Positions 2,860 through 49,952 of a stretch of DNA of 64,000 bases are shown in pieces (positions within the stretch are counted from its first letter, which is position 1; every line of letters starts with the position of its first letter). The stretch lies in the NCBI RefSeq assembly GCF_041886205.1, contig NZ_CP169029.1; one strand, 5' to 3'. Origin of the DNA: Escherichia coli (GTDB lineage: Bacteria > Pseudomonadota > Gammaproteobacteria > Enterobacterales > Enterobacteriaceae). Below the pieces are notes generated by a model. The model was not told the origin of the DNA. It saw only the letters and a list, made by a program, of their open reading frames with translations, and searched no databases. A program made the position numbers and the translations under genes.

Positions 2860-3139
2860 TAACATTTATCTTAGTTATGGTTTAAGTGCATGAAAATAAT
2901 TGAGTTATATCATCATAGATTAAACGCTGTTATCTGCAATTAAGACTTTACTGAAAAGAAATGTAACAACTGTGAAAACTGAATAATAATATGAAAATAT
3001 TACAAATATTTGGCTGGTGTTATTGGTGTAATCGGTTTCAGTAGTGATGATAATTTGCGATAAAACGTGTTGAGGAAGAATGATGTTATTGTGCGGGCAG
3101 CTTTTTGCCGGATGCGGCGTGAATGCCTATCCACCGCGG

Positions 3140-3177
3140 TGAGGTAAAAGAAAAAGGCCAGCGCGAGGCTGGCCTTT
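3140..3177 (-). terminator. Rho-independent terminator downstream of metK
   Basis: On the minus strand: GC stem aggccagc/gctggcct followed by a U-rich tract (ttttcttttacc), directly after the metK stop at 3197. Confidence 0.7.
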
Positions 3178-21765: not shown

Positions 21766-21862
21766 CTGATGCGCTACGCTTATCAGGCCTACACGTATCC
21801 TGCAATATATTGAATTTGCAGGTTTTTGTAGGCCGGATAAGGCGTTCACGCCGCATCCGGCA
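21766..21862. repeat. REP/BIME pair between fbaA and mscS
   Basis: gcctgatgcgctacgcttatcaggcctac and gtaggccggataaggcgttcacgccgcatccggca in inverted orientation. Confidence 0.7.
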
Positions 21863-27881: not shown

Positions 27882-28877
27882 TTAATCAAAATATTGCGTC
27901 TGGATAAATTCACTGAGCTGCCGCAGGCCGGTGCGCGGTGAGAGCGTATTGTTTTTGACCGCTAAAAGCGTCTGGCGGTAATAGCGATCGAAATCTTCAT
28001 TCGCGAACAGGTGATTCAGTACTTCTTCTTCGGTCTGCTTACGCAGCCATTCCACCGATTGTTGTTGCCGCACTTGTTGTAAACGACCACTGGCAGTTAG
28101 CGCGGTTTTGAAGTCGATGATGGCGTGCCAGATCTCATCGATTCCACGTTTTTCCAGTGCGCTACAAGTCAGAACCCGTGGCTGCCATTCGTCGTATTTA
28201 CGTCGCAGAATATGCAGGGCACTCTCGTACATATGCCGGGCAATGGCGACATTGGTATGGTTATCGCCATCGTCTTTGTTGATAACGAGCAGATCAGCCA
28301 CTTCCATCAGCCCTTTTTTAATGCCCTGCAGATCATCGCCGCCACCGGCAATTTGCAACGAGATAAAACAGTCCACCATGCGGGCGACTTCCGTTTCCGA
28401 CTGCCCGACGCCAACCGTTTCGACAATCACTACGTCATAACCCGCCGCTTCGCATAACAGCATTAATTCCCGCGCTCGCTGACTGGCACCGCCCAGATGA
28501 CCGGAGGATGGTACCGGGCGAATAAACGCCGCTTCGGCACGCGCCAGGTCATTCATGCGGGTTTTATCCCCGAGAATGCTACCGCCAGTGACCGGGCTGC
28601 TGGGATCGACCGCAATAACCGCGACCTTTAATCCCTCACGAATCAACAACATGCCAAAGGCTTCAAGAAAGGTACTTTTCCCCGCGCCGGGTGTGCCGGT
28701 AACGCCCAGTCGCAGGGCGTTACCGCAGTACGGCATAATGGCATCAAGCAGTTGCGTACTTAGCGCCTGATGACGCGGGTGACGGCTTTCCACCAGCGTC
28801 ATGGCCTGGGCGAGTGTGGCACGCTCACCCTGACGTAAGCGGCGAATACTTTCTGCCAGCGTGGCTTCATTAATCAT
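27882..28877 (-). CDS. argK: MeaB/ArgK-type G-protein chaperone for methylmalonyl-CoA mutase, 331 aa
   Basis: ORF track 27882..28877; P-loop GTPGAGKST; the start overlaps the scpA stop by 8 bp. Confidence 0.95.
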
Positions 28878-31014
28878 GATGCTGGCTTATCAGATTCAGT
28901 ACGTCGCGCACACTGTCGAGCATAGGTGTACCTGGACCATAAATCGCCGCCACGCCGCGCTCTTGCAGGAAGGCGTAATCCTGCGGTGGAATGACGCCAC
29001 CGGCGACTACGCAGATATCTTCGCGTCCCCATTTTTTCAGCGCTTCGACCAGTTCCGGGATCAGCGTTTTATGACCGGCAGCCAGTGAGGATGCGCCCAC
29101 TACGTGAACGTCGTTTTCTACGGCCAGGCGGGCGATCTCTTCAGGTGTAGAGAACATCGGGCTTAAATCTACGTCGAAACCGAGATCGGAATAGGCGCTG
29201 GCGATCACTTTTGCGCCGCGATCGTGCCCATCCTGGCCCATTTTAGCGATCAGAATGCGCGGGCGACGACCATTGTCGGCAAGGAACTGCTCCGTTTGCG
29301 CAACAATGGCATCGAACTCGGAGGCCGATTTCTCAGATTGATGATAGCTTTGCGCAATCACGCCGGTAACACACTGGCTTGGCACCAGATAACGGTCGAA
29401 AGCGGCTTCCAGCGCATCGGAAATTTCACCCAGGGTGGCGCGAACGCGAGCGGCATTAACAGCGGCAGCCAGCAGGTTTTCGTTATGCTGTGCGGCGTGA
29501 GTCAGGGCGTTCAACGCGGCGGTTACGGCGGCATCATCACGGGTGGCGCGAATGCGTTCCAGCGAAGCAATTTGCTCGTTACGCACCATCACGTTGTCGA
29601 TCTCAAGTACATCGGTTTCGTCTTCGTGATCCAGTTTGTACTTGTTGACACCAACGATGACACGTTTGCCCTGGTCGATAAGCGACTGTTCGCGCGCTGA
29701 GGCCTCTTCGATCATTCGTTTTGGCAGACCTGCTTCGATCGCTTTCGCCATGCCACCGGCTTCGTCGATCTGTTGGATAATGGCTCTGGCTTGTTTGACG
29801 ATTTGATCGGTCAGCGACTCAACGTAATAGGATCCGGCCAGCGGATCGACGGTGCGGCAGAGTTCTGATTCTTCCTGGATGATGATCTGGGTGTTGCGGG
29901 CAATGCGTGCGGAGAAATCGGTAGGCAAACCAAGCGCTTCGTCAAAGGCGTTGGTATGCAGTGACTGAGTACCGCCCAGCGTCGCAGCCAGTGCTTCAAT
30001 GGTGGTGCGGATAACGTTGTTATACGGATCCTGTTCAGTCAGGCTCCAGCCTGAGGTCTGGCAGTGGGTACGCAGCGCCAGTGATTTCGGGTCCTGTGCG
30101 CCAAATCCACTGACCGCTTCGCTCCATAAATAACGTGCCGCACGCAACATGGCGACGTTCATAAACAGATCCATGCCGATGCCGAAGAAGAACGACAGGC
30201 GAGGAGCGAAGTCATCAATTTTCAGCCCGGCGGAGATTGCTGCTTTGATGTACTCAATCCCATCGGCGAGCGTAAATGCTACCTGCTGCACGCAGTTGGC
30301 ACCCGCTTCACCCATGTGGTAACCGCTGATACTGATGGTATTAAATCGCGGCATGTTGCCAGAACACCAGGCGATGATGTCGGCGATAATGCGCATTGAC
30401 GGTTTTGGCGGGTAAATATAGGTGTTGCGGCAAAGATACTCTTTGAGGATATCGTTTTGAATGGTGCCGGTCAGTTTATCAGGTGTAACACCTTGCTCTT
30501 CTGCGGCGACGATATAAAACGCCAGTACTGGTAGCACTGCGCCATTCATGGTCATCGAAACCGACATTTTTTCCAGCGGGATCTGGTCGAACAGGACTTT
30601 CATATCTTCCACGGTGTCGATAGCGACGCCCGCTTTGCCGACGTCGCCCGCCACGCGCGGGTTATCGGAGTCGTAGCCTCGGTGGGTGGCAAGGTCAAAC
30701 GCAACGGAAAGACCTTTTTGCCCGGCGGCCAGGTTACGGCGATAAAAAGCGTTGGACTCTTTTGCTGTTGAAAAACCAGCATACTGACGGATGGTCCACG
30801 GTTGGGCGGTATACATAGTGGCACGCGGGCCACGAACGTAGGGCGGCAAACCAGGAAGGGTACCTGTCACCTCCAGATTATCGAGATCGGCTTCGGTATA
30901 CAGCGGCTTGATGGCGATCCCTTCCGCGGTTTGCTGAACCAGCGAGTCGACAGTTTTCTCCCGACGGCTCAATTCCTTGTTGGCAAGCTGTTGCCACTCC
31001 TGCACGTTAGACAT
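28870..31014 (-). CDS. scpA: Methylmalonyl-CoA mutase (B12-dependent), 714 aa
   Basis: ORF track 28870..31035; ATG at rc 31012-31014 gives [40 protein letters not shown]. Confidence 0.96.
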
Positions 31015-33452: not shown

Positions 33453-34685
33453 ATGGCAAAGGTATCGCTGGAGAAAGACAAGATTAAGTTTCTGCTGGTA
33501 GAAGGCGTGCACCAAAAGGCGCTGGAAAGCCTTCGTGCAGCTGGTTACACCAACATCGAATTTCACAAAGGCGCGCTGGATGATGAACAATTAAAAGAAT
33601 CCATCCGCGATGCCCACTTCATCGGCCTGCGATCCCGTACCCATCTGACTGAAGACGTGATCAACGCCGCAGAAAAACTGGTCGCTATTGGCTGTTTCTG
33701 TATCGGAACAAACCAGGTTGATCTGGATGCGGCGGCAAAGCGCGGGATCCCGGTATTTAACGCACCGTTCTCAAATACGCGCTCTGTTGCGGAGCTGGTG
33801 ATTGGCGAACTGCTGCTGCTATTGCGCGGCGTGCCGGAAGCCAATGCTAAAGCGCACCGTGGCGTGTGGAACAAACTGGCGGCGGGTTCTTTTGAAGCGC
33901 GCGGCAAAAAGCTGGGTATCATCGGCTACGGTCATATTGGTACGCAATTGGGCATTCTGGCTGAATCGCTGGGAATGTATGTTTACTTTTATGATATTGA
34001 AAACAAACTGCCGCTGGGCAACGCCACTCAGGTACAGCATCTTTCTGACCTGCTGAATATGAGCGATGTGGTGAGTCTGCATGTACCAGAGAATCCGTCC
34101 ACCAAAAATATGATGGGCGCGAAAGAAATTTCACTAATGAAGCCCGGCTCGCTGCTGATTAATGCTTCGCGCGGTACTGTGGTGGATATTCCGGCGCTGT
34201 GTGATGCGCTGGCGATCAAACATCTGGCGGGGGCGGCAATCGACGTATTCCCGACGGAACCGGCGACCAATAGCGATCCATTTACCTCTCCACTGTGTGA
34301 ATTCGACAACGTCCTTCTGACGCCACACATTGGCGGTTCGACTCAGGAAGCGCAGGAGAATATCGGCCTGGAAGTTGCGGGTAAATTGATCAAGTATTCT
34401 GACAATGGCTCAACGCTCTCTGCGGTGAACTTCCCGGAAGTCTCGCTGCCACTGCATGGTGGTCGTCGTCTGATGCACATTCACGAAAACCGTCCGGGCG
34501 TGCTAACTGCGCTGAACAAAATCTTCGCCGAGCAGGGCGTCAACATCGCCGCGCAATATCTACAAACTTCCGCCCAGATGGGTTATGTAGTTATTGATAT
34601 TGAAGCTGACGAAGACGTTGCCGAAAAAGCGCTGCAGGCAATGAAAGCTATTCCGGGTACCATTCGCGCCCGTCTGCTGTACTAA
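33453..34685 (+). CDS. serA: D-3-phosphoglycerate dehydrogenase, 410 aa
   Basis: ORF track 33453..34685; MAKVSLEKDKIKFLLVEGVHQKALESLRAAGYTNIEFHKGALDDEQL... Confidence 0.97.
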   Translation: MAKVSLEKDKIKFLLVEGVHQKALESLRAAGYTNIEFHKGALDDEQLKESIRDAHFIGLRSRTHLTEDVINAAEKLVAIGCFCIGTNQVDLDAAAKRGIPVFNAPFSNTRSVAELVIGELLLLLRGVPEANAKAHRGVWNKLAAGSFEARGKKLGIIGYGHIGTQLGILAESLGMYVYFYDIENKLPLGNATQVQHLSDLLNMSDVVSLHVPENPSTKNMMGAKEISLMKPGSLLINASRGTVVDIPALCDALAIKHLAGAAIDVFPTEPATNSDPFTSPLCEFDNVLLTPHIGGSTQEAQENIGLEVAGKLIKYSDNGSTLSAVNFPEVSLPLHGGRRLMHIHENRPGVLTALNKIFAEQGVNIAAQYLQTSAQMGYVVIDIEADEDVAEKALQAMKAIPGTIRARLLY

Positions 34686-34704: not shown

Positions 34705-34737
34705 AACGGGCAGGTCACTGACTTGCCCGTTTTTTTA
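34705..34737 (+). terminator. Rho-independent terminator of serA
   Basis: acgggcaggtc-actgac-ttgcccgt followed by ttttttt. Confidence 0.85.
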
Positions 34738-34864
34738 TCCCTTCTCCACACCGTTGCCGCGTTGCGCATTCTACTTTGCGAGTCTGCTCCAGAAAATAAA
34801 TCAAAGTCAGATCAATGCGTTGTGTTTATTTAATGGGGATTTACGATGGCGGGACAGCATGGGG

Positions 34865-35010
34865 CTGTAACGGTAAAGCCCTCACCGAAGCGAGGGCTTA
34901 AAGGAGAAGGGTTATGATGCGACTTGTCATCATACTGATTGTACTGTTACTGATAAGTTTCGGAGCTTATTAACAGTCAGTCTCAGGGGAGGAGTCATCC
35001 TCCCTTACCC
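34865..35010 (-). ncRNA. sibC: Sib antisense sRNA, copy 1 (approximate ends)
   Basis: Sib antitoxin RNAs are encoded opposite to and fully overlapping ibs; a minus-strand hairpin plus short U-tract (rc of 34877-34898) marks a probable 3' end. Ends are inferred, not mapped. Confidence 0.5.
34914..34973 (+). CDS. ibsC: Ibs-family type I toxin, 19 aa (MMRLVIILIVLLLISFGAY)
   Basis: ATG ATG CGA CTT GTC ATC ATA CTG ATT GTA CTG TTA CTG ATA AGT TTC GGA GCT TAT TAA; RBS aaggagaagggtt upstream; matches the Ibs hydrophobic toxin pattern. Confidence 0.8.
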   Translation: MMRLVIILIVLLLISFGAY

Positions 35011-35255
35011 TTACTCACTAAATTAGGTCAAAGAATCAACGATGTCAATCAGGGCGATGCGGGGTGCATCGCCCTGAACCGATCATTTGATAGACCCTTC
35101 ATCGCCCACGTTTACTGCCGTAATAGATCCTTTTTCCCAAAAATTATCTCTGTTTTGCATGGGGTTTTTCGAGCACGCTCGAAGAAAAGATTTAAAGGTA
35201 GATCAATGCGTTGTGGTTATTTAAAGAGAGCTTACGATAGCTGGGCAGCATGGGG

Positions 35256-35400
35256 CTGTAACGGTAAAGCCCTCACCGAAGCGAGGGCTTGAAGGAGAAG
35301 GGTTATGATGCGACTTGCCATCATACTGATTGTACTGTTACTCATAAGTTTCCCAGCTTATTAACAGTCAGTCACAGGGGAGGAGCAATCCTCCCTTACC
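35256..35400 (-). ncRNA. Sib antisense sRNA, copy 2 (approximate ends)
   Basis: Second repeat unit, same architecture as copy 1 shifted by 391 bp. Confidence 0.5.
35305..35364 (+). CDS. Ibs-family type I toxin, second copy, 19 aa (MMRLAIILIVLLLISFPAY)
   Basis: Same frame and RBS as copy 1; differs at 2 residues (V5A, G17P). Confidence 0.8.
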   Translation: MMRLAIILIVLLLISFPAY

Positions 35401-35464
35401 CTTACTCACTAAATTAGGTTAAAGAATCAACGATGTCAATCAGGGCGATGCAGGTGTGTCGCCC

Positions 35465-36013
35465 TCACCACTCCCAGACTTTCGACGGTGTAACCACCGC
35501 AGGAAGAGGGATATCCCACTCTTCAACGGGGAGTTTTTCCACCAACTGACAATCATGCGCATAACCCACCGGTTGCATTTTATAGTGCTGCCAGTTTTGT
35601 AAGGTCCGATCATAAAAACCACCGCCCATTCCCAGGCGCTGGCCGTACTCATCAAAGGCGACCAGCGGTGTGATCAACACGTCTAATCGGGAAAGGGGTA
35701 GCACGTCACGCACATCCAGTTTTGGCTCATGGATCTTCAACCTGTTCATCACCAGTTCGCTTTGCGGATGGTAATTCAGGAACAGCAAATTACCGGCACT
35801 AAAGGGATGCAAAACTGGAAGATATACGCGCTTACCGGCGCGCCAGAGTTGTTCTATGAGTGGCTGGGTGTCGAGTTCGCCATCAAAAGAGAGGAATACA
35901 GCGACCGTATGTGCCATCACCACCGGGGGATAAGTCATCATCCGGGTAGCGGCTTGTTGACCCATTTCCTGCTGTTGTTCCGGCGTTAACGTACGACGAC
36001 GTTGCCGAATCAT
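35465..36013 (-). CDS. ygfA: 5-formyltetrahydrofolate cyclo-ligase family protein, 182 aa
   Basis: ORF track 35465..36211 over-extends into ssrS; ATG at rc 36011-36013 gives MIRQRRRTLTPEQQQEMGQQAATRMM; lies directly downstream of 6S RNA on the same strand. Confidence 0.9.
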   Translation of the reverse strand: MIRQRRRTLTPEQQQEMGQQAATRMMTYPPVVMAHTVAVFLSFDGELDTQPLIEQLWRAGKRVYLPVLHPFSAGNLLFLNYHPQSELVMNRLKIHEPKLDVRDVLPLSRLDVLITPLVAFDEYGQRLGMGGGFYDRTLQNWQHYKMQPVGYAHDCQLVEKLPVEEWDIPLPAVVTPSKVWEW

Positions 36014-36085
36014 TTTGCGGATTTCTTGTCGGGATAATGTCAGTGGGAGTTCTGGTAGTTGCGTCATGGCTGGTGCCAGATAAGA

Positions 36086-36271
36086 AGGGAATCTCCGAGA
36101 TGCCGCCGCAGGCTGTAACCCTTGAACCCTTGGTTCAAGGTGAATGTGTCGTCGCAGTTTTAAGGCTTCTCGGACGGACCGAGCATGCTCACCAACCGCG
36201 GAGCGCCACATTCTTGTGGTATGAAATATCGGCTCAGGGGACTGGCCCGCTTGCGAACATCTCAGAGAAAT
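36086..36271 (-). ncRNA. ssrS: 6S RNA (SsrS), RNA polymerase-sigma70 regulatory RNA
   Basis: Reverse complement of 36086-36271 reads AUUUCUCUGAGAUGUUCGCAAGCGGGCCAGUCCCCUGAGCCGAUAUUUCAUACCACAAGAAUGUGGCGCUCCGCGG...GGAGAUUCCCU, which matches the E. coli 6S RNA sequence as recalled. Confidence 0.95.
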
Positions 36272-49770: not shown

Positions 49771-49952
49771 GCCTTTGTAGGCCTGATAAGACGCGCCAGC
49801 GTCGCATCAGGCATCGGAGCGCAACCGCCGGATGCGGCGTGAACGCCTTATCCGATCTACGGGCCTCGTCCCTGTTGTGATAAAGGCATCAAATCCCAGA
49901 CATGATAAGACGCGTCAGCGTCGCATCAGGCGATAAATGCCTGATGCGATAC
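49771..49952. repeat. REP/BIME cluster (at least 3 REP units) between convergent yqfA and ygfZ
   Basis: gtaggcctgataagacgcgccagcgtcgcatcaggc, gccggatgcggcgtgaacgccttatccgatctac, and gataagacgcgtcagcgtcgcatcaggc. Confidence 0.7.

What the first reader, a model, noticed from the sequence alone, without database searches (positions are those of the whole stretch)
34795..35460. Tandem duplication of the Ibs/Sib type I toxin-antitoxin module between serA and ygfA
Two direct repeats with a 391-bp period each carry a 19-codon hydrophobic ORF (MMRLVIILIVLLLISFGAY and MMRLAIILIVLLLISFPAY) preceded by a strong RBS, plus the structured flanks expected for the overlapping antisense Sib RNA. K-12 has a single copy (sibC/ibsC) at this locus as far as I recall; copy number of these QUAD repeats is strain-variable. 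The two toxin variants differ at positions 5 and 17, which could alter toxicity or antitoxin pairing specificity.
Basis: partly seen in the sequence, partly recalled or inferred. Interest (0 to 1): 0.5.

Follow-up and report, generated by a model that had tools for sequence, protein, structure and literature searches.

The report
Two-copy SibC/IbsC toxin-antitoxin locus
Between serA and fau this E. coli strain carries two adjacent copies of the known Ibs/Sib small-toxin/antisense-RNA module where K-12 has one, an arrangement shared by about a third of sequenced E. coli and already annotated, so it is real but ordinary.

Summary
Two 289-nt direct repeats (34775-35063 and 35166-35454, 89% identical, period 391) each carry a 19-codon hydrophobic ORF with an AAGGAG ribosome-binding site. 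On the opposite strand each carries a full-length Rfam SIB_RNA match (134 and 137 bits; gathering score 56).

Both copies are SibC-type, and both keep the K-12 SibC length (141 nt), predicted fold, terminator and promoter hexamers.

The two-copy state is common, though. The inter-copy spacer occurs in 1858 of 5426 complete E. coli genomes (34%), and the window's two units are the commonest two-copy haplotype. NCBI's PGAP pipeline already annotates both toxins in a near-identical strain. Variable Ibs copy number has been published (Fozo 2010).

E. albertii and two other non-coli Escherichia genomes have one copy, so the second copy probably arose within E. coli.

One new inference: the copies differ at 8 of 141 Sib positions. 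Three lie in target-recognition domain TRD1, including ibs codon 17, and one lies in TRD2. TRD1 should therefore discriminate between the copies, while the shared TRD2 should allow cross-repression. This is untested.

Verdict: already known; low interest.

The parts
34775..35063 (.). Repeat copy 1 (the serA-proximal QUAD/Sib repeat unit)
   Evidence: the repeat finder family D1, reference copy
35166..35454 (.). Repeat copy 2 (the fau-proximal unit). Its right end abuts or overlaps the fau stop codon at 35465-35467.
   Evidence: the repeat finder family D1, 89% identical to copy 1, spacing 391
34914..34973 (+). ibs toxin ORF, copy 1: MMRLVIILIVLLLISFGAY (G17 allele). SD AAGGAG at 34901-34906.
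   Evidence: Translation. PGAP calls the identical ORF 'ibsC', WP_071524576.1, in strain 6EVA.
35305..35364 (+). ibs toxin ORF, copy 2: MMRLAIILIVLLLISFPAY (A5/P17 allele). SD AAGGAG at 35292-35297.
   Evidence: Translation. PGAP 'Ibs family toxin', WP_001387035.1. The same peptide is encoded by the single copy of Escherichia sp. MOD1-EC7003.
34872..35012 (-). Sib antitoxin RNA, copy 1: 141 nt. Ends are placed by ungapped homology to the annotated K-12 SibC. The 3' end carries the terminator hairpin GCCCUCGCUUCGGUGAGGGC followed by UUUACC.
   Evidence: Rfam SIB_RNA 134.2 bits. Differs at 6 of 141 positions from K-12 SibC. Predicted fold -55.2 kcal/mol, z = -5.96.
35263..35403 (-). Sib antitoxin RNA, copy 2: 141 nt
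   Evidence: Rfam SIB_RNA 137.0 bits. Differs at 5 of 141 positions from K-12 SibC and at 8 of 141 from copy 1. Predicted fold -54.8 kcal/mol, z = -4.53.
35020..35048 (-). Putative sib promoter, copy 1: -35 TTGACA (35048-35043), 17-nt spacer, -10 TAATTT (35025-35020), start at 35012
   Evidence: Read from the sequence. The same sequence as K-12 occupies Rfam model positions 1-30. Inferred, not mapped here.
35411..35439 (-). Putative sib promoter, copy 2: TTGACA, 17-nt spacer, TAATTT
   Evidence: Same as copy 1 except one spacer substitution. Inferred.
34820..34847 (+). Putative ibs promoter, copy 1: TTGTGT, 16-nt spacer, TACGAT. The inferred mRNA runs about 34854-35012 (159 nt, with an 18-nt 5' overhang beyond the Sib 3' end).
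   Evidence: Hexamers read from the sequence. mRNA length and overhang are taken from Han et al. 2010 for K-12 ibsC. Both hexamers are conserved in every unit aligned. Inferred.
35211..35238 (+). Putative ibs promoter, copy 2: TTGTGG, 16-nt spacer, TACGAT. The inferred mRNA runs about 35245-35403.
   Evidence: Hexamers retained although the surrounding 98 nt is only 78% identical to copy 1. Inferred.
35064..35165 (.). Unique inter-copy spacer, the marker of the two-copy arrangement
   Evidence: Present once in 1858 of 5426 complete E. coli genomes and never twice. Homologous across all two-copy haplotypes examined. No significant similarity to the flanks, other Sib loci or outgroups.
34705..34731 (+). 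serA intrinsic terminator (left boundary of the locus; not part of the module)
   Evidence: Terminator scan: 12-bp stem followed by a T-run

Best explanation
The region holds two adjacent, intact paralogues of the E. coli SibC/IbsC type I toxin-antitoxin module.

In each unit the plus strand gives a roughly 159-nt mRNA for a 19-residue hydrophobic membrane peptide (Ibs). The minus strand gives a constitutive 141-nt antisense RNA (Sib) that overlaps the whole mRNA. Sib pairs first through its P5 loop (TRD1, against ibs codons 12-19) or its single-stranded J1/7 segment (TRD2, against the ribosome-binding region). This blocks translation and triggers mRNA decay.

The two-copy state is a common, old polymorphism of E. 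coli, carried by about a third of complete genomes. It probably arose once within E. coli from a single-copy ancestor.

Inference: the two Sib RNAs differ enough in TRD1 to tell their targets apart there, but they share TRD2. Each probably still represses the other's toxin mRNA, more securely copy-1 Sib on copy-2 ibs. The pair would then be partly redundant rather than orthogonal.

What is shown: sequence, family membership, conservation and population frequency. What is inferred from K-12 experiments: transcription, toxicity and repression.
For: - Family: two full-length SIB_RNA matches at 134 and 137 bits against a gathering score of 56.
- Type: both Sib units align without gaps to K-12 SibC, with 6 and 5 differences in 141 nt. 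They are far closer to SibC than to SibA, B, D or E.
- Structure: the predicted fold is the same as for K-12 SibC. TRD1 sits in a loop and TRD2 is unpaired. z = -6.0 and -4.5, and 0 of 200 shuffles fold as well.
- Coding: both ORFs are intact and have an SD.
- Promoters: the promoter hexamers for ibs and sib are retained in both copies. This holds even where copy 2's upstream region is only 78% identical to copy 1's.
- Annotation: PGAP annotates both toxins in strain 6EVA, whose copy of this locus is 100% identical over the 1201 nt queried.
- Frequency: the spacer is present in 1858 of 5426 genomes. The copy-1 unit is at least 99% identical in 1831 genomes and the copy-2 unit in 1524.
- Single origin: spacers are homologous across the five two-copy haplotypes from which a spacer was extracted, including O157:H7, O145:H28 and LY180. 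The sixth, EcRep26, gave no spacer by the anchor motifs and matches the window's spacer only in short fragments. The copy-2 upstream regions of all six share changes that set them apart from copy 1.
- Outgroups: E. albertii, Escherichia sp. MOD1-EC7003 and Escherichia sp. E1V33 have one copy between fau and serA.
- Mechanism in K-12: TRD1 is +46 to +68 and TRD2 is +99 to +115. Either one suffices for repression, and changing both abolishes it (PMC2943612).
- Differences between copies: positions 17, 18, 30, 50, 51, 61, 86 and 113.
- Duplex energies: the non-cognate TRD1 loses 14-17 kcal/mol, more than the 10 kcal/mol lost by the experimentally non-cross-reacting SibC/ibsD pair. TRD2 loses 0 (Sib1 on ibs2, a G.U wobble) or 4.8 kcal/mol (Sib2 on ibs1, a C/A mismatch), against 8.5 for SibC/ibsD.
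Against: - No expression data were available. Transcription of either Sib or ibs in this strain is inferred from identity with K-12 elements.
- The simple promoter scan did not call the sib or ibs promoters, because their -10 hexamers match the consensus poorly.
- Copy 2 carries V5A. A review reports V5 as the one N-terminal residue that matters for IbsC toxicity (PMC8309996), so copy 2's toxin could be weaker.
- The cross-repression prediction rests on short-duplex energies and on analogy with engineered SibC/SibD chimeras, not on a test.
- The origin of the spacer is unexplained, so a simple tandem duplication is not demonstrated.
Confidence: 0.9

Rival explanations
1. Only one of the two units is functional. 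The other, most likely copy 2 with its diverged upstream region and V5A toxin, is a decaying duplicate kept only because it sits next to the active copy.
For: Copy 2's upstream 98 nt is only 78% identical to copy 1's. That is more diverged than the E. albertii orthologue, which is 87% identical. V5 is reported to be important for IbsC toxicity (PMC8309996). The -35 hexamer of copy 2's ibs promoter is weaker (TTGTGG against TTGTGT).
Against: In copy 2 the ORF, SD, -10 hexamer, sib promoter, Sib fold and terminator are all intact. Its core is 99.3% identical to the single, presumably functional, copy of Escherichia sp. MOD1-EC7003, which encodes the same A5/P17 peptide. The unit is at least 99% conserved in 1524 genomes. 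No frameshifted or truncated ibs turned up among the 11 ibs ORFs (copy 1 and copy 2) of the six two-copy haplotypes examined; copy 2 of EcRep26 is cut off by the end of the fetched locus shortly after its stop codon.
Confidence: 0.08
2. Two copies is the ancestral state for E. coli or for Escherichia. Single-copy strains such as K-12 and UPEC, and the other Escherichia species, lost one unit by recombination between the repeats. The window would then show retention, not duplication.
For: Copy 2's upstream region is about equally distant (74-79%) from every Escherichia orthologue, which could mean an old split. K-12's single unit is a mosaic of copy-1-like and copy-2-like sites. Unequal crossing-over between 289-nt repeats is easy, and its product would look exactly like a single-copy locus. 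Pseudocitrobacter faecalis also has two Sib copies next to fau.
Against: All three non-coli Escherichia genomes examined have one copy, as do the single-copy E. coli examined, K-12 among them. That history would need several independent losses. The Pseudocitrobacter pair has a different spacing (342 nt), and P. vendiensis has one copy, so that case looks independent. The spacer was not found in any outgroup locus.
Confidence: 0.2
3. The two modules are fully orthogonal. Each Sib represses only its own ibs, as for the K-12 paralogues, so the strain has simply gained a sixth or seventh independent toxin-antitoxin pair.
For: In K-12, Sib RNAs act only on their cognate ibs, apart from ibsA (PMC2943612). 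The TRD1 core triplet differs at 2 of 3 positions and there is one further TRD1 change. The duplex-energy penalty exceeds that of the non-cross-reacting SibC/ibsD pair.
Against: TRD2 is identical apart from position +113, which becomes a G.U wobble in one direction. Han et al. showed that an intact TRD2 alone maintains repression when TRD1 is swapped. In some two-copy haplotypes (O145:H28, TB06051) TRD2 is identical in both copies, and in TB06051 both copies encode the same peptide.
Confidence: 0.25

Closest known systems
sibC/ibsC of E. coli K-12 (b4446/b4665; QUAD1c, rygC)
   Same: Same chromosomal locus (serA-fau). Same 141-nt antisense RNA, with 5-6 substitutions. Same 19-residue peptide except residue 17, plus residue 5 in copy 2. 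Same promoter hexamers, SD, terminator and predicted fold.
   Different: K-12 has one unit and the window has two, separated by a unique spacer of about 100 nt. K-12 has Ser (AGC) at codon 17; the window has Gly (GGA) and Pro (CCA), which changes the TRD1 core triplet +49 to +51.
The two-copy serA-fau Ibs/Sib locus of other E. coli strains (for example O157:H7, O145:H28, O111:H8, LY180)
   Same: The same arrangement and a homologous spacer. The window's copy-1 and copy-2 units are identical or nearly so in 1831 and 1524 complete genomes. PGAP annotates both ORFs.
   Different: Only allelic detail differs. The window's spacer is a mosaic of the two main spacer types, and only 6 genomes match it at 99% or better. 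Copy 2 of O157:H7 encodes L16/P17. O145:H28 has P17 and S17. TB06051 has S17 in both copies.
Tandem sibA-sibB and sibD-sibE pairs of K-12
   Same: Two Ibs/Sib units in direct orientation within one intergenic region, 335 and 376 nt apart. This is the same architecture as here (391 nt).
   Different: They are at different loci (yegL-mdtA and yqiK-hldE). Partners within those pairs are more diverged than the 94% seen here. They are only 65-79% identical to the window's units in the core.
Other tandemly duplicated type I toxin-antitoxin loci (ldr/rdl and zorO/orzO of E. coli)
   Same: A small hydrophobic toxin with an antisense RNA, repeated in one intergenic region, with copy number varying between strains (PMC2887945).
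   Different: These are unrelated toxin and RNA families. OrzO and Rdl pair with the 5' UTR rather than overlapping the whole mRNA.

Membership tests
Sib antitoxin RNA (Rfam RF00113, SIB_RNA) | Scores above the curated gathering threshold of the family covariance model over its full length | tested here: met
   134.2 and 137.0 bits against a gathering score of 56, model positions 1-147 of 147, both copies
Sib antitoxin RNA (Rfam RF00113, SIB_RNA) | A structured RNA of about 140 nt with a closing P1 stem, internal hairpins and a 3' intrinsic terminator hairpin | tested here: met
   Both 141-nt units give the same minimum-free-energy fold as K-12 SibC, with z = -5.96 and -4.53. This is a prediction only; no structure probing was done.
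Sib antitoxin RNA (Rfam RF00113, SIB_RNA) | Constitutively transcribed as an abundant small RNA | not testable with these tools
   Only the promoter sequence (TTGACA, 17-nt spacer, TAATTT) is seen. It has the same hexamers as the homologous K-12 sibC sequence.
Ibs/Sib type I toxin-antitoxin module | An 18-19-codon, highly hydrophobic ORF with an SD on the strand opposite sib and wholly inside the Sib-complementary region | tested here: met
   ORFs at 34914-34973 and 35305-35364 lie inside 34872-35012 and 35263-35403. AAGGAG lies 7 nt upstream. The peptides align with IbsA-E.
Ibs/Sib type I toxin-antitoxin module | The peptide is toxic (membrane depolarisation) when overproduced, and the cognate Sib represses it | not testable with these tools
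   Known for K-12 IbsC/SibC (PMC2943612, PMC8309996). The G17 and A5/P17 alleles were not tested in anything I could read.
SibC subtype (orthologue of K-12 sibC) | Located in the serA-fau(ygfA) intergenic region and closer to SibC than to SibA, B, D or E | tested here: met
   Flanking genes identified. Core identity to K-12 C is 95.8% and 96.5%, against 65-79% to A, B, D and E.
Simple tandem duplication (evolutionary claim in the title) | Two adjacent direct copies, with a single copy in the outgroups | tested here: met
   Direct repeats with a 391-nt period. One copy in E. albertii, Escherichia sp. MOD1-EC7003 and Escherichia sp. E1V33.
Simple tandem duplication (evolutionary claim in the title) | The whole period is repeated, so the segment between the copies is homologous to one of the flanks | tested here: not met
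   The spacer at 35064-35165 shows no similarity beyond chance to the serA 3' flank or the fau 3' end. Global alignment: 31 of 500 and 298 of 500 shuffles reach the score. Local alignment: 194-730 of 1000 shuffles do.

The most novel reading that the evidence does not exclude
The serA-fau pair may be a natural snapshot of how a duplicated antisense toxin-antitoxin module becomes orthogonal.

The three nucleotides that form ibs codon 17 are also the core of Sib TRD1. They carry three alleles within E. coli at this one locus (AGC Ser, GGA Gly, CCA Pro), each 2-3 substitutions apart. The other 138 nt are almost invariant, and TRD2 is still shared.

If this clustering reflects selection for RNA-RNA discrimination between paralogues rather than selection on the peptide, codon 17 would be a site where the antitoxin drives the toxin's protein sequence.
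Probability: 0.2. Interest if true: 0.35.

Novelty: already known. Interest (0 to 1): 0.12.

Why it matters
It matters little beyond correct annotation. A K-12-based view undercounts Ibs/Sib modules in about a third of E. coli strains, including O157:H7 and other Shiga-toxin-producing E. coli (STEC) strains. This affects sRNA annotation, RNA-seq read assignment between two 94%-identical antisense RNAs, and knock-out design, because deleting one sib may or may not be lethal depending on cross-protection.

The one point with some scientific use is that the two copies differ in TRD1 but share TRD2. That makes a ready-made natural test of the two-domain recognition model proposed for SibC.

Tried and rejected
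1. Origin of the spacer. I tested whether the 102-nt spacer is a diverged copy of the serA 3' end and terminator or of the fau 3' end, which would make this a clean 391-nt tandem duplication. By eye there was a tempting match: CTGCCGTAATAGATCC...AAAATTA against the serA stop region. Global and local alignments of three spacer variants did not beat shuffles. A blastn-short search of the spacer against the K-12 sibA/B and sibD/E loci, the outgroup loci and the whole window found nothing meaningful. The origin remains unexplained.

2. Fozo et al. 2008. The original Sib/Ibs paper could not be read under the PMC id I guessed. Statements about it rest on Han 2010, Fozo 2010 and a 2021 review.

3. 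Genome-collection scan. The scan with CATCATRACCCTTYYCCTT returned mostly chance hits in unrelated phyla. Only 9 of the 88 loci were enterobacterial. E. fergusonii and Salmonella were not recovered by this exact pattern, so their state at this locus is unknown.

4. Promoter scan. The consensus scan did not call the sib or ibs promoters. I placed them by homology with K-12 and do not treat the scan as evidence against them.

5. Other features in the intergenic region. A low-threshold Rfam scan gave only sub-threshold noise: sraA at 22 bits and a sense-strand SIB echo at 18 bits. The ORF list showed no plausible additional gene in the spacer.

6. Assembly artefact. Rejected, because the same arrangement is present in 1858 complete genomes.

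Full report
**Observation**

The sequence between serA (33453-34685, +) and fau/ygfA (35465-36067, -) holds two direct repeats of 289 nt. They lie at 34775-35063 and 35166-35454, are 89% identical, and start 391 nt apart.

Each repeat carries a 19-codon ORF on the plus strand:
- 34914-34973, MMRLVIILIVLLLISFGAY
- 35305-35364, MMRLAIILIVLLLISFPAY

Each ORF has AAGGAG 7 nt upstream of the ATG.

On the minus strand, each repeat gives a full-length match to Rfam SIB_RNA (RF00113). The scores are 134.2 and 137.0 bits against a gathering score of 56. There are no other SIB matches in the 64-kb window.

**Anatomy**

Both units align without gaps to the annotated 141-nt SibC of K-12 MG1655. This places the Sib RNAs at 35012 to 34872 and 35403 to 35263 on the minus strand.
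- Copy 1 differs from K-12 SibC at 6 positions.
- Copy 2 differs from K-12 SibC at 5 positions.
- The two copies differ from each other at 8: positions 17, 18, 30, 50, 51, 61, 86 and 113.

All three RNAs have the same predicted fold: a closing stem, three internal hairpins, a single-stranded segment, then a GC-rich terminator hairpin. The window's two RNAs fold far better than shuffled sequence, with z = -5.96 and -4.53 and 0 of 200 shuffles as stable.

Upstream of each Sib start is TTGACA, a 17-nt spacer, then TAATTT. Upstream of each ibs is TTGTGT or TTGTGG, a 16-nt spacer, then TACGAT. That positions the ibs transcript start 18 nt beyond the Sib 3' end, where Han et al. 2010 placed the 159-nt K-12 ibsC mRNA. 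These hexamers are conserved in every unit I aligned. The generic promoter scan did not call them because the -10 elements are poor consensus matches. The promoters are therefore inferred by homology and were not mapped.

A low-threshold Rfam scan and an ORF listing found nothing else credible in the intergenic region.

**What it is**

Both units are SibC-type. Their cores are 96% identical to K-12 sibC/ibsC and only 65-79% identical to sibA, B, D or E.

The window itself is ordinary E. coli core chromosome. It is collinear with and nearly identical to strain 6EVA. In that strain NCBI's PGAP pipeline already annotates the two ORFs as 'ibsC' (WP_071524576.1) and 'Ibs family toxin' (WP_001387035.1).

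**How it most likely works**

The mechanism is taken from K-12 experiments and was not tested here.
- Ibs peptides are 18-19-residue hydrophobic peptides. Overproduction depolarises the membrane and kills the cell.
- Each is repressed by the constitutively made Sib RNA encoded on the opposite strand, which overlaps the whole mRNA (PMC2943612, PMC8309996).
- SibC recognises ibsC through two independent domains. TRD1 (+46 to +68, the P5 loop) targets the ORF. TRD2 (+99 to +115, the single-stranded J1/7 segment) targets the translation initiation region.
- Either domain alone is enough for repression. Changing both to the SibD sequence abolishes repression of ibsC, and changing either one confers repression of ibsD.

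In the window, three of the eight differences between copies fall in TRD1 (+50, +51, +61). Positions +49 to +51 are the triplet Han et al. swapped, and they are also ibs codon 17. Only one difference falls in TRD2 (+113).

Short-duplex energies:

| Pairing | TRD1 loss (kcal/mol) | TRD2 loss (kcal/mol) |
|---|---|---|
| Copy-1 Sib on copy-2 ibs | 16.7 | 0 (G.U wobble) |
| Copy-2 Sib on copy-1 ibs | 14.0 | 4.8 (C/A mismatch) |
| K-12 SibC on ibsD (experimentally non-cross-reacting) | about 10 | 8.5 |

My inference is that TRD1 discriminates between the two copies but the shared TRD2 still allows cross-repression, more securely in the copy-1-on-copy-2 direction.

On toxicity:
- Residue 17 is naturally variable among the K-12 paralogues (Q, P, S, A, P).
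- V5 is reported to be the one N-terminal residue that matters for IbsC toxicity.
- The A5/P17 peptide is also the only copy in Escherichia sp. MOD1-EC7003. That argues against it being dead.

**How common it is**

Across 5426 complete E. coli genomes:
- The locus is present in essentially all of them.
- The inter-copy spacer is present, once, in 1858 (34%). No genome holds it twice.
- About 1867 genomes give two places for a 141-nt Sib query.
- The window's copy-1 unit is at least 99% identical in 1831 genomes, and its copy-2 unit in 1524.

The window therefore carries the commonest two-copy haplotype. Two-copy strains include O157:H7, O145:H28, O111:H8 and LY180. Single-copy strains include K-12, B, HB101 and UPEC isolates. 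Complete absence is very rare; one example is O157:H7 TR01, where the units are cleanly deleted.

Variable Ibs copy number among E. coli and Shigella (4 to 7 copies) and the tendency of these loci to be tandemly duplicated are already in the literature (PMC2887945).

**Evolution**

A pattern scan of species-representative genomes recovered this locus in several relatives.
- E. albertii, Escherichia sp. MOD1-EC7003 and Escherichia sp. E1V33 each have one Sib between fau and serA.
- Pseudocitrobacter faecalis has two Sib copies next to fau, but at 342-nt spacing. P. vendiensis has one. This looks like an independent event.

Among E. coli two-copy haplotypes, the spacers I could extract (five of six) are homologous. 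The copy-2 upstream regions of all six share the same changes relative to copy 1. That points to a single origin, most parsimoniously within E. coli.

Copy 2's core is 99.3% identical to the single copy of MOD1-EC7003, so it looks ancestral-like. P17 is the commonest residue in the outgroups. Copy 1 carries derived changes, namely G17 and the P2 loop.

Two things remain unexplained.
- The spacer resembles neither flank nor any other Sib locus.
- Copy 2's upstream 98 nt is only 74-79% identical to any orthologue. That is more diverged than the E. albertii orthologue (87%), although its core is well conserved.

The alternative history, ancestral two copies with repeated loss, cannot be excluded. 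I give it about 0.2.

**Verdict**

It describes a known, already annotated and common polymorphism of a well-studied toxin-antitoxin family. The only mildly new element is the inference that the paralogues have diverged in one recognition domain while sharing the other.

Novelty: already known. Interest: about 0.12.

Noticed in passing
window 36088-36271 (-): 6S RNA gene ssrS (Rfam 139.8 bits), immediately upstream of fau on the minus strand. This is the known ssrS-fau arrangement.
   Followed up: no
window 49780-49857 (-) and 21785-21827 (-): Rfam matches to naRNA4/CssrE (72 bits) and ES036/CssrF (47 bits). I took these to be REP-type repeat-derived elements in intergenic DNA, but I did not look at them.
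   Followed up: no
L003 (E. coli O157:H7 TR01, NZ_CP033605.1), locus positions about 1687-1893: This O157:H7 strain has no Ibs/Sib unit between serA and fau. One clean deletion runs from just after the inferred ibs transcription start of copy 1 to the sib -35 region of copy 2. Only 2-4 of 5426 genomes lack the module.
   Followed up: partly
L021 (Pseudocitrobacter faecalis) 2670-2820 and 3012-3161: Two SIB_RNA copies next to fau in a different genus, at 342-nt spacing, while P. vendiensis (L081) has one. This looks like an independent duplication at the same locus.
   Followed up: partly
window 35064-35165: The window's spacer is a mosaic. Its left third matches the O145:H28/TB06051 type and the rest matches the LY180 type. 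Only 6 of 1858 spacer-bearing genomes match it at 99% or better, which suggests recombination within the locus.
   Followed up: partly
window 34962-34964 and 35353-35355 (ibs codon 17 = Sib +49 to +51): At this one codon E. coli alleles are AGC (Ser), GGA (Gly) and CCA (Pro), each 2-3 substitutions apart, while the rest of the 141-nt unit is nearly invariant. Whether the cause is a mutational hotspot, gene conversion or selection is unresolved.
   Followed up: partly
window 35050-35077: A perfect 11-bp inverted repeat (CAGGGCGATGC GGGG TGCATCGCCCTG) lies immediately upstream of the copy-1 sib -35 hexamer. The copy-2 counterpart is weaker and overlaps the fau stop codon. Its function is unknown; it may be a remnant of the fau 3' end or terminator carried along with the repeat.
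   Followed up: no
window 28870-31014 (-): scpA (methylmalonyl-CoA mutase) is intact in the window, but in the near-identical strain 6EVA it is annotated as a pseudogene with an internal stop. The window therefore comes from a close relative of 6EVA, not from 6EVA itself; there are at least 20 mismatched positions over the 64 kb in an ungapped comparison.
   Followed up: partly
E. coli genome search: One SibC-type match lies on a record classed as a plasmid. All the other roughly 7290 matches are chromosomal. I did not examine it.
   Followed up: no
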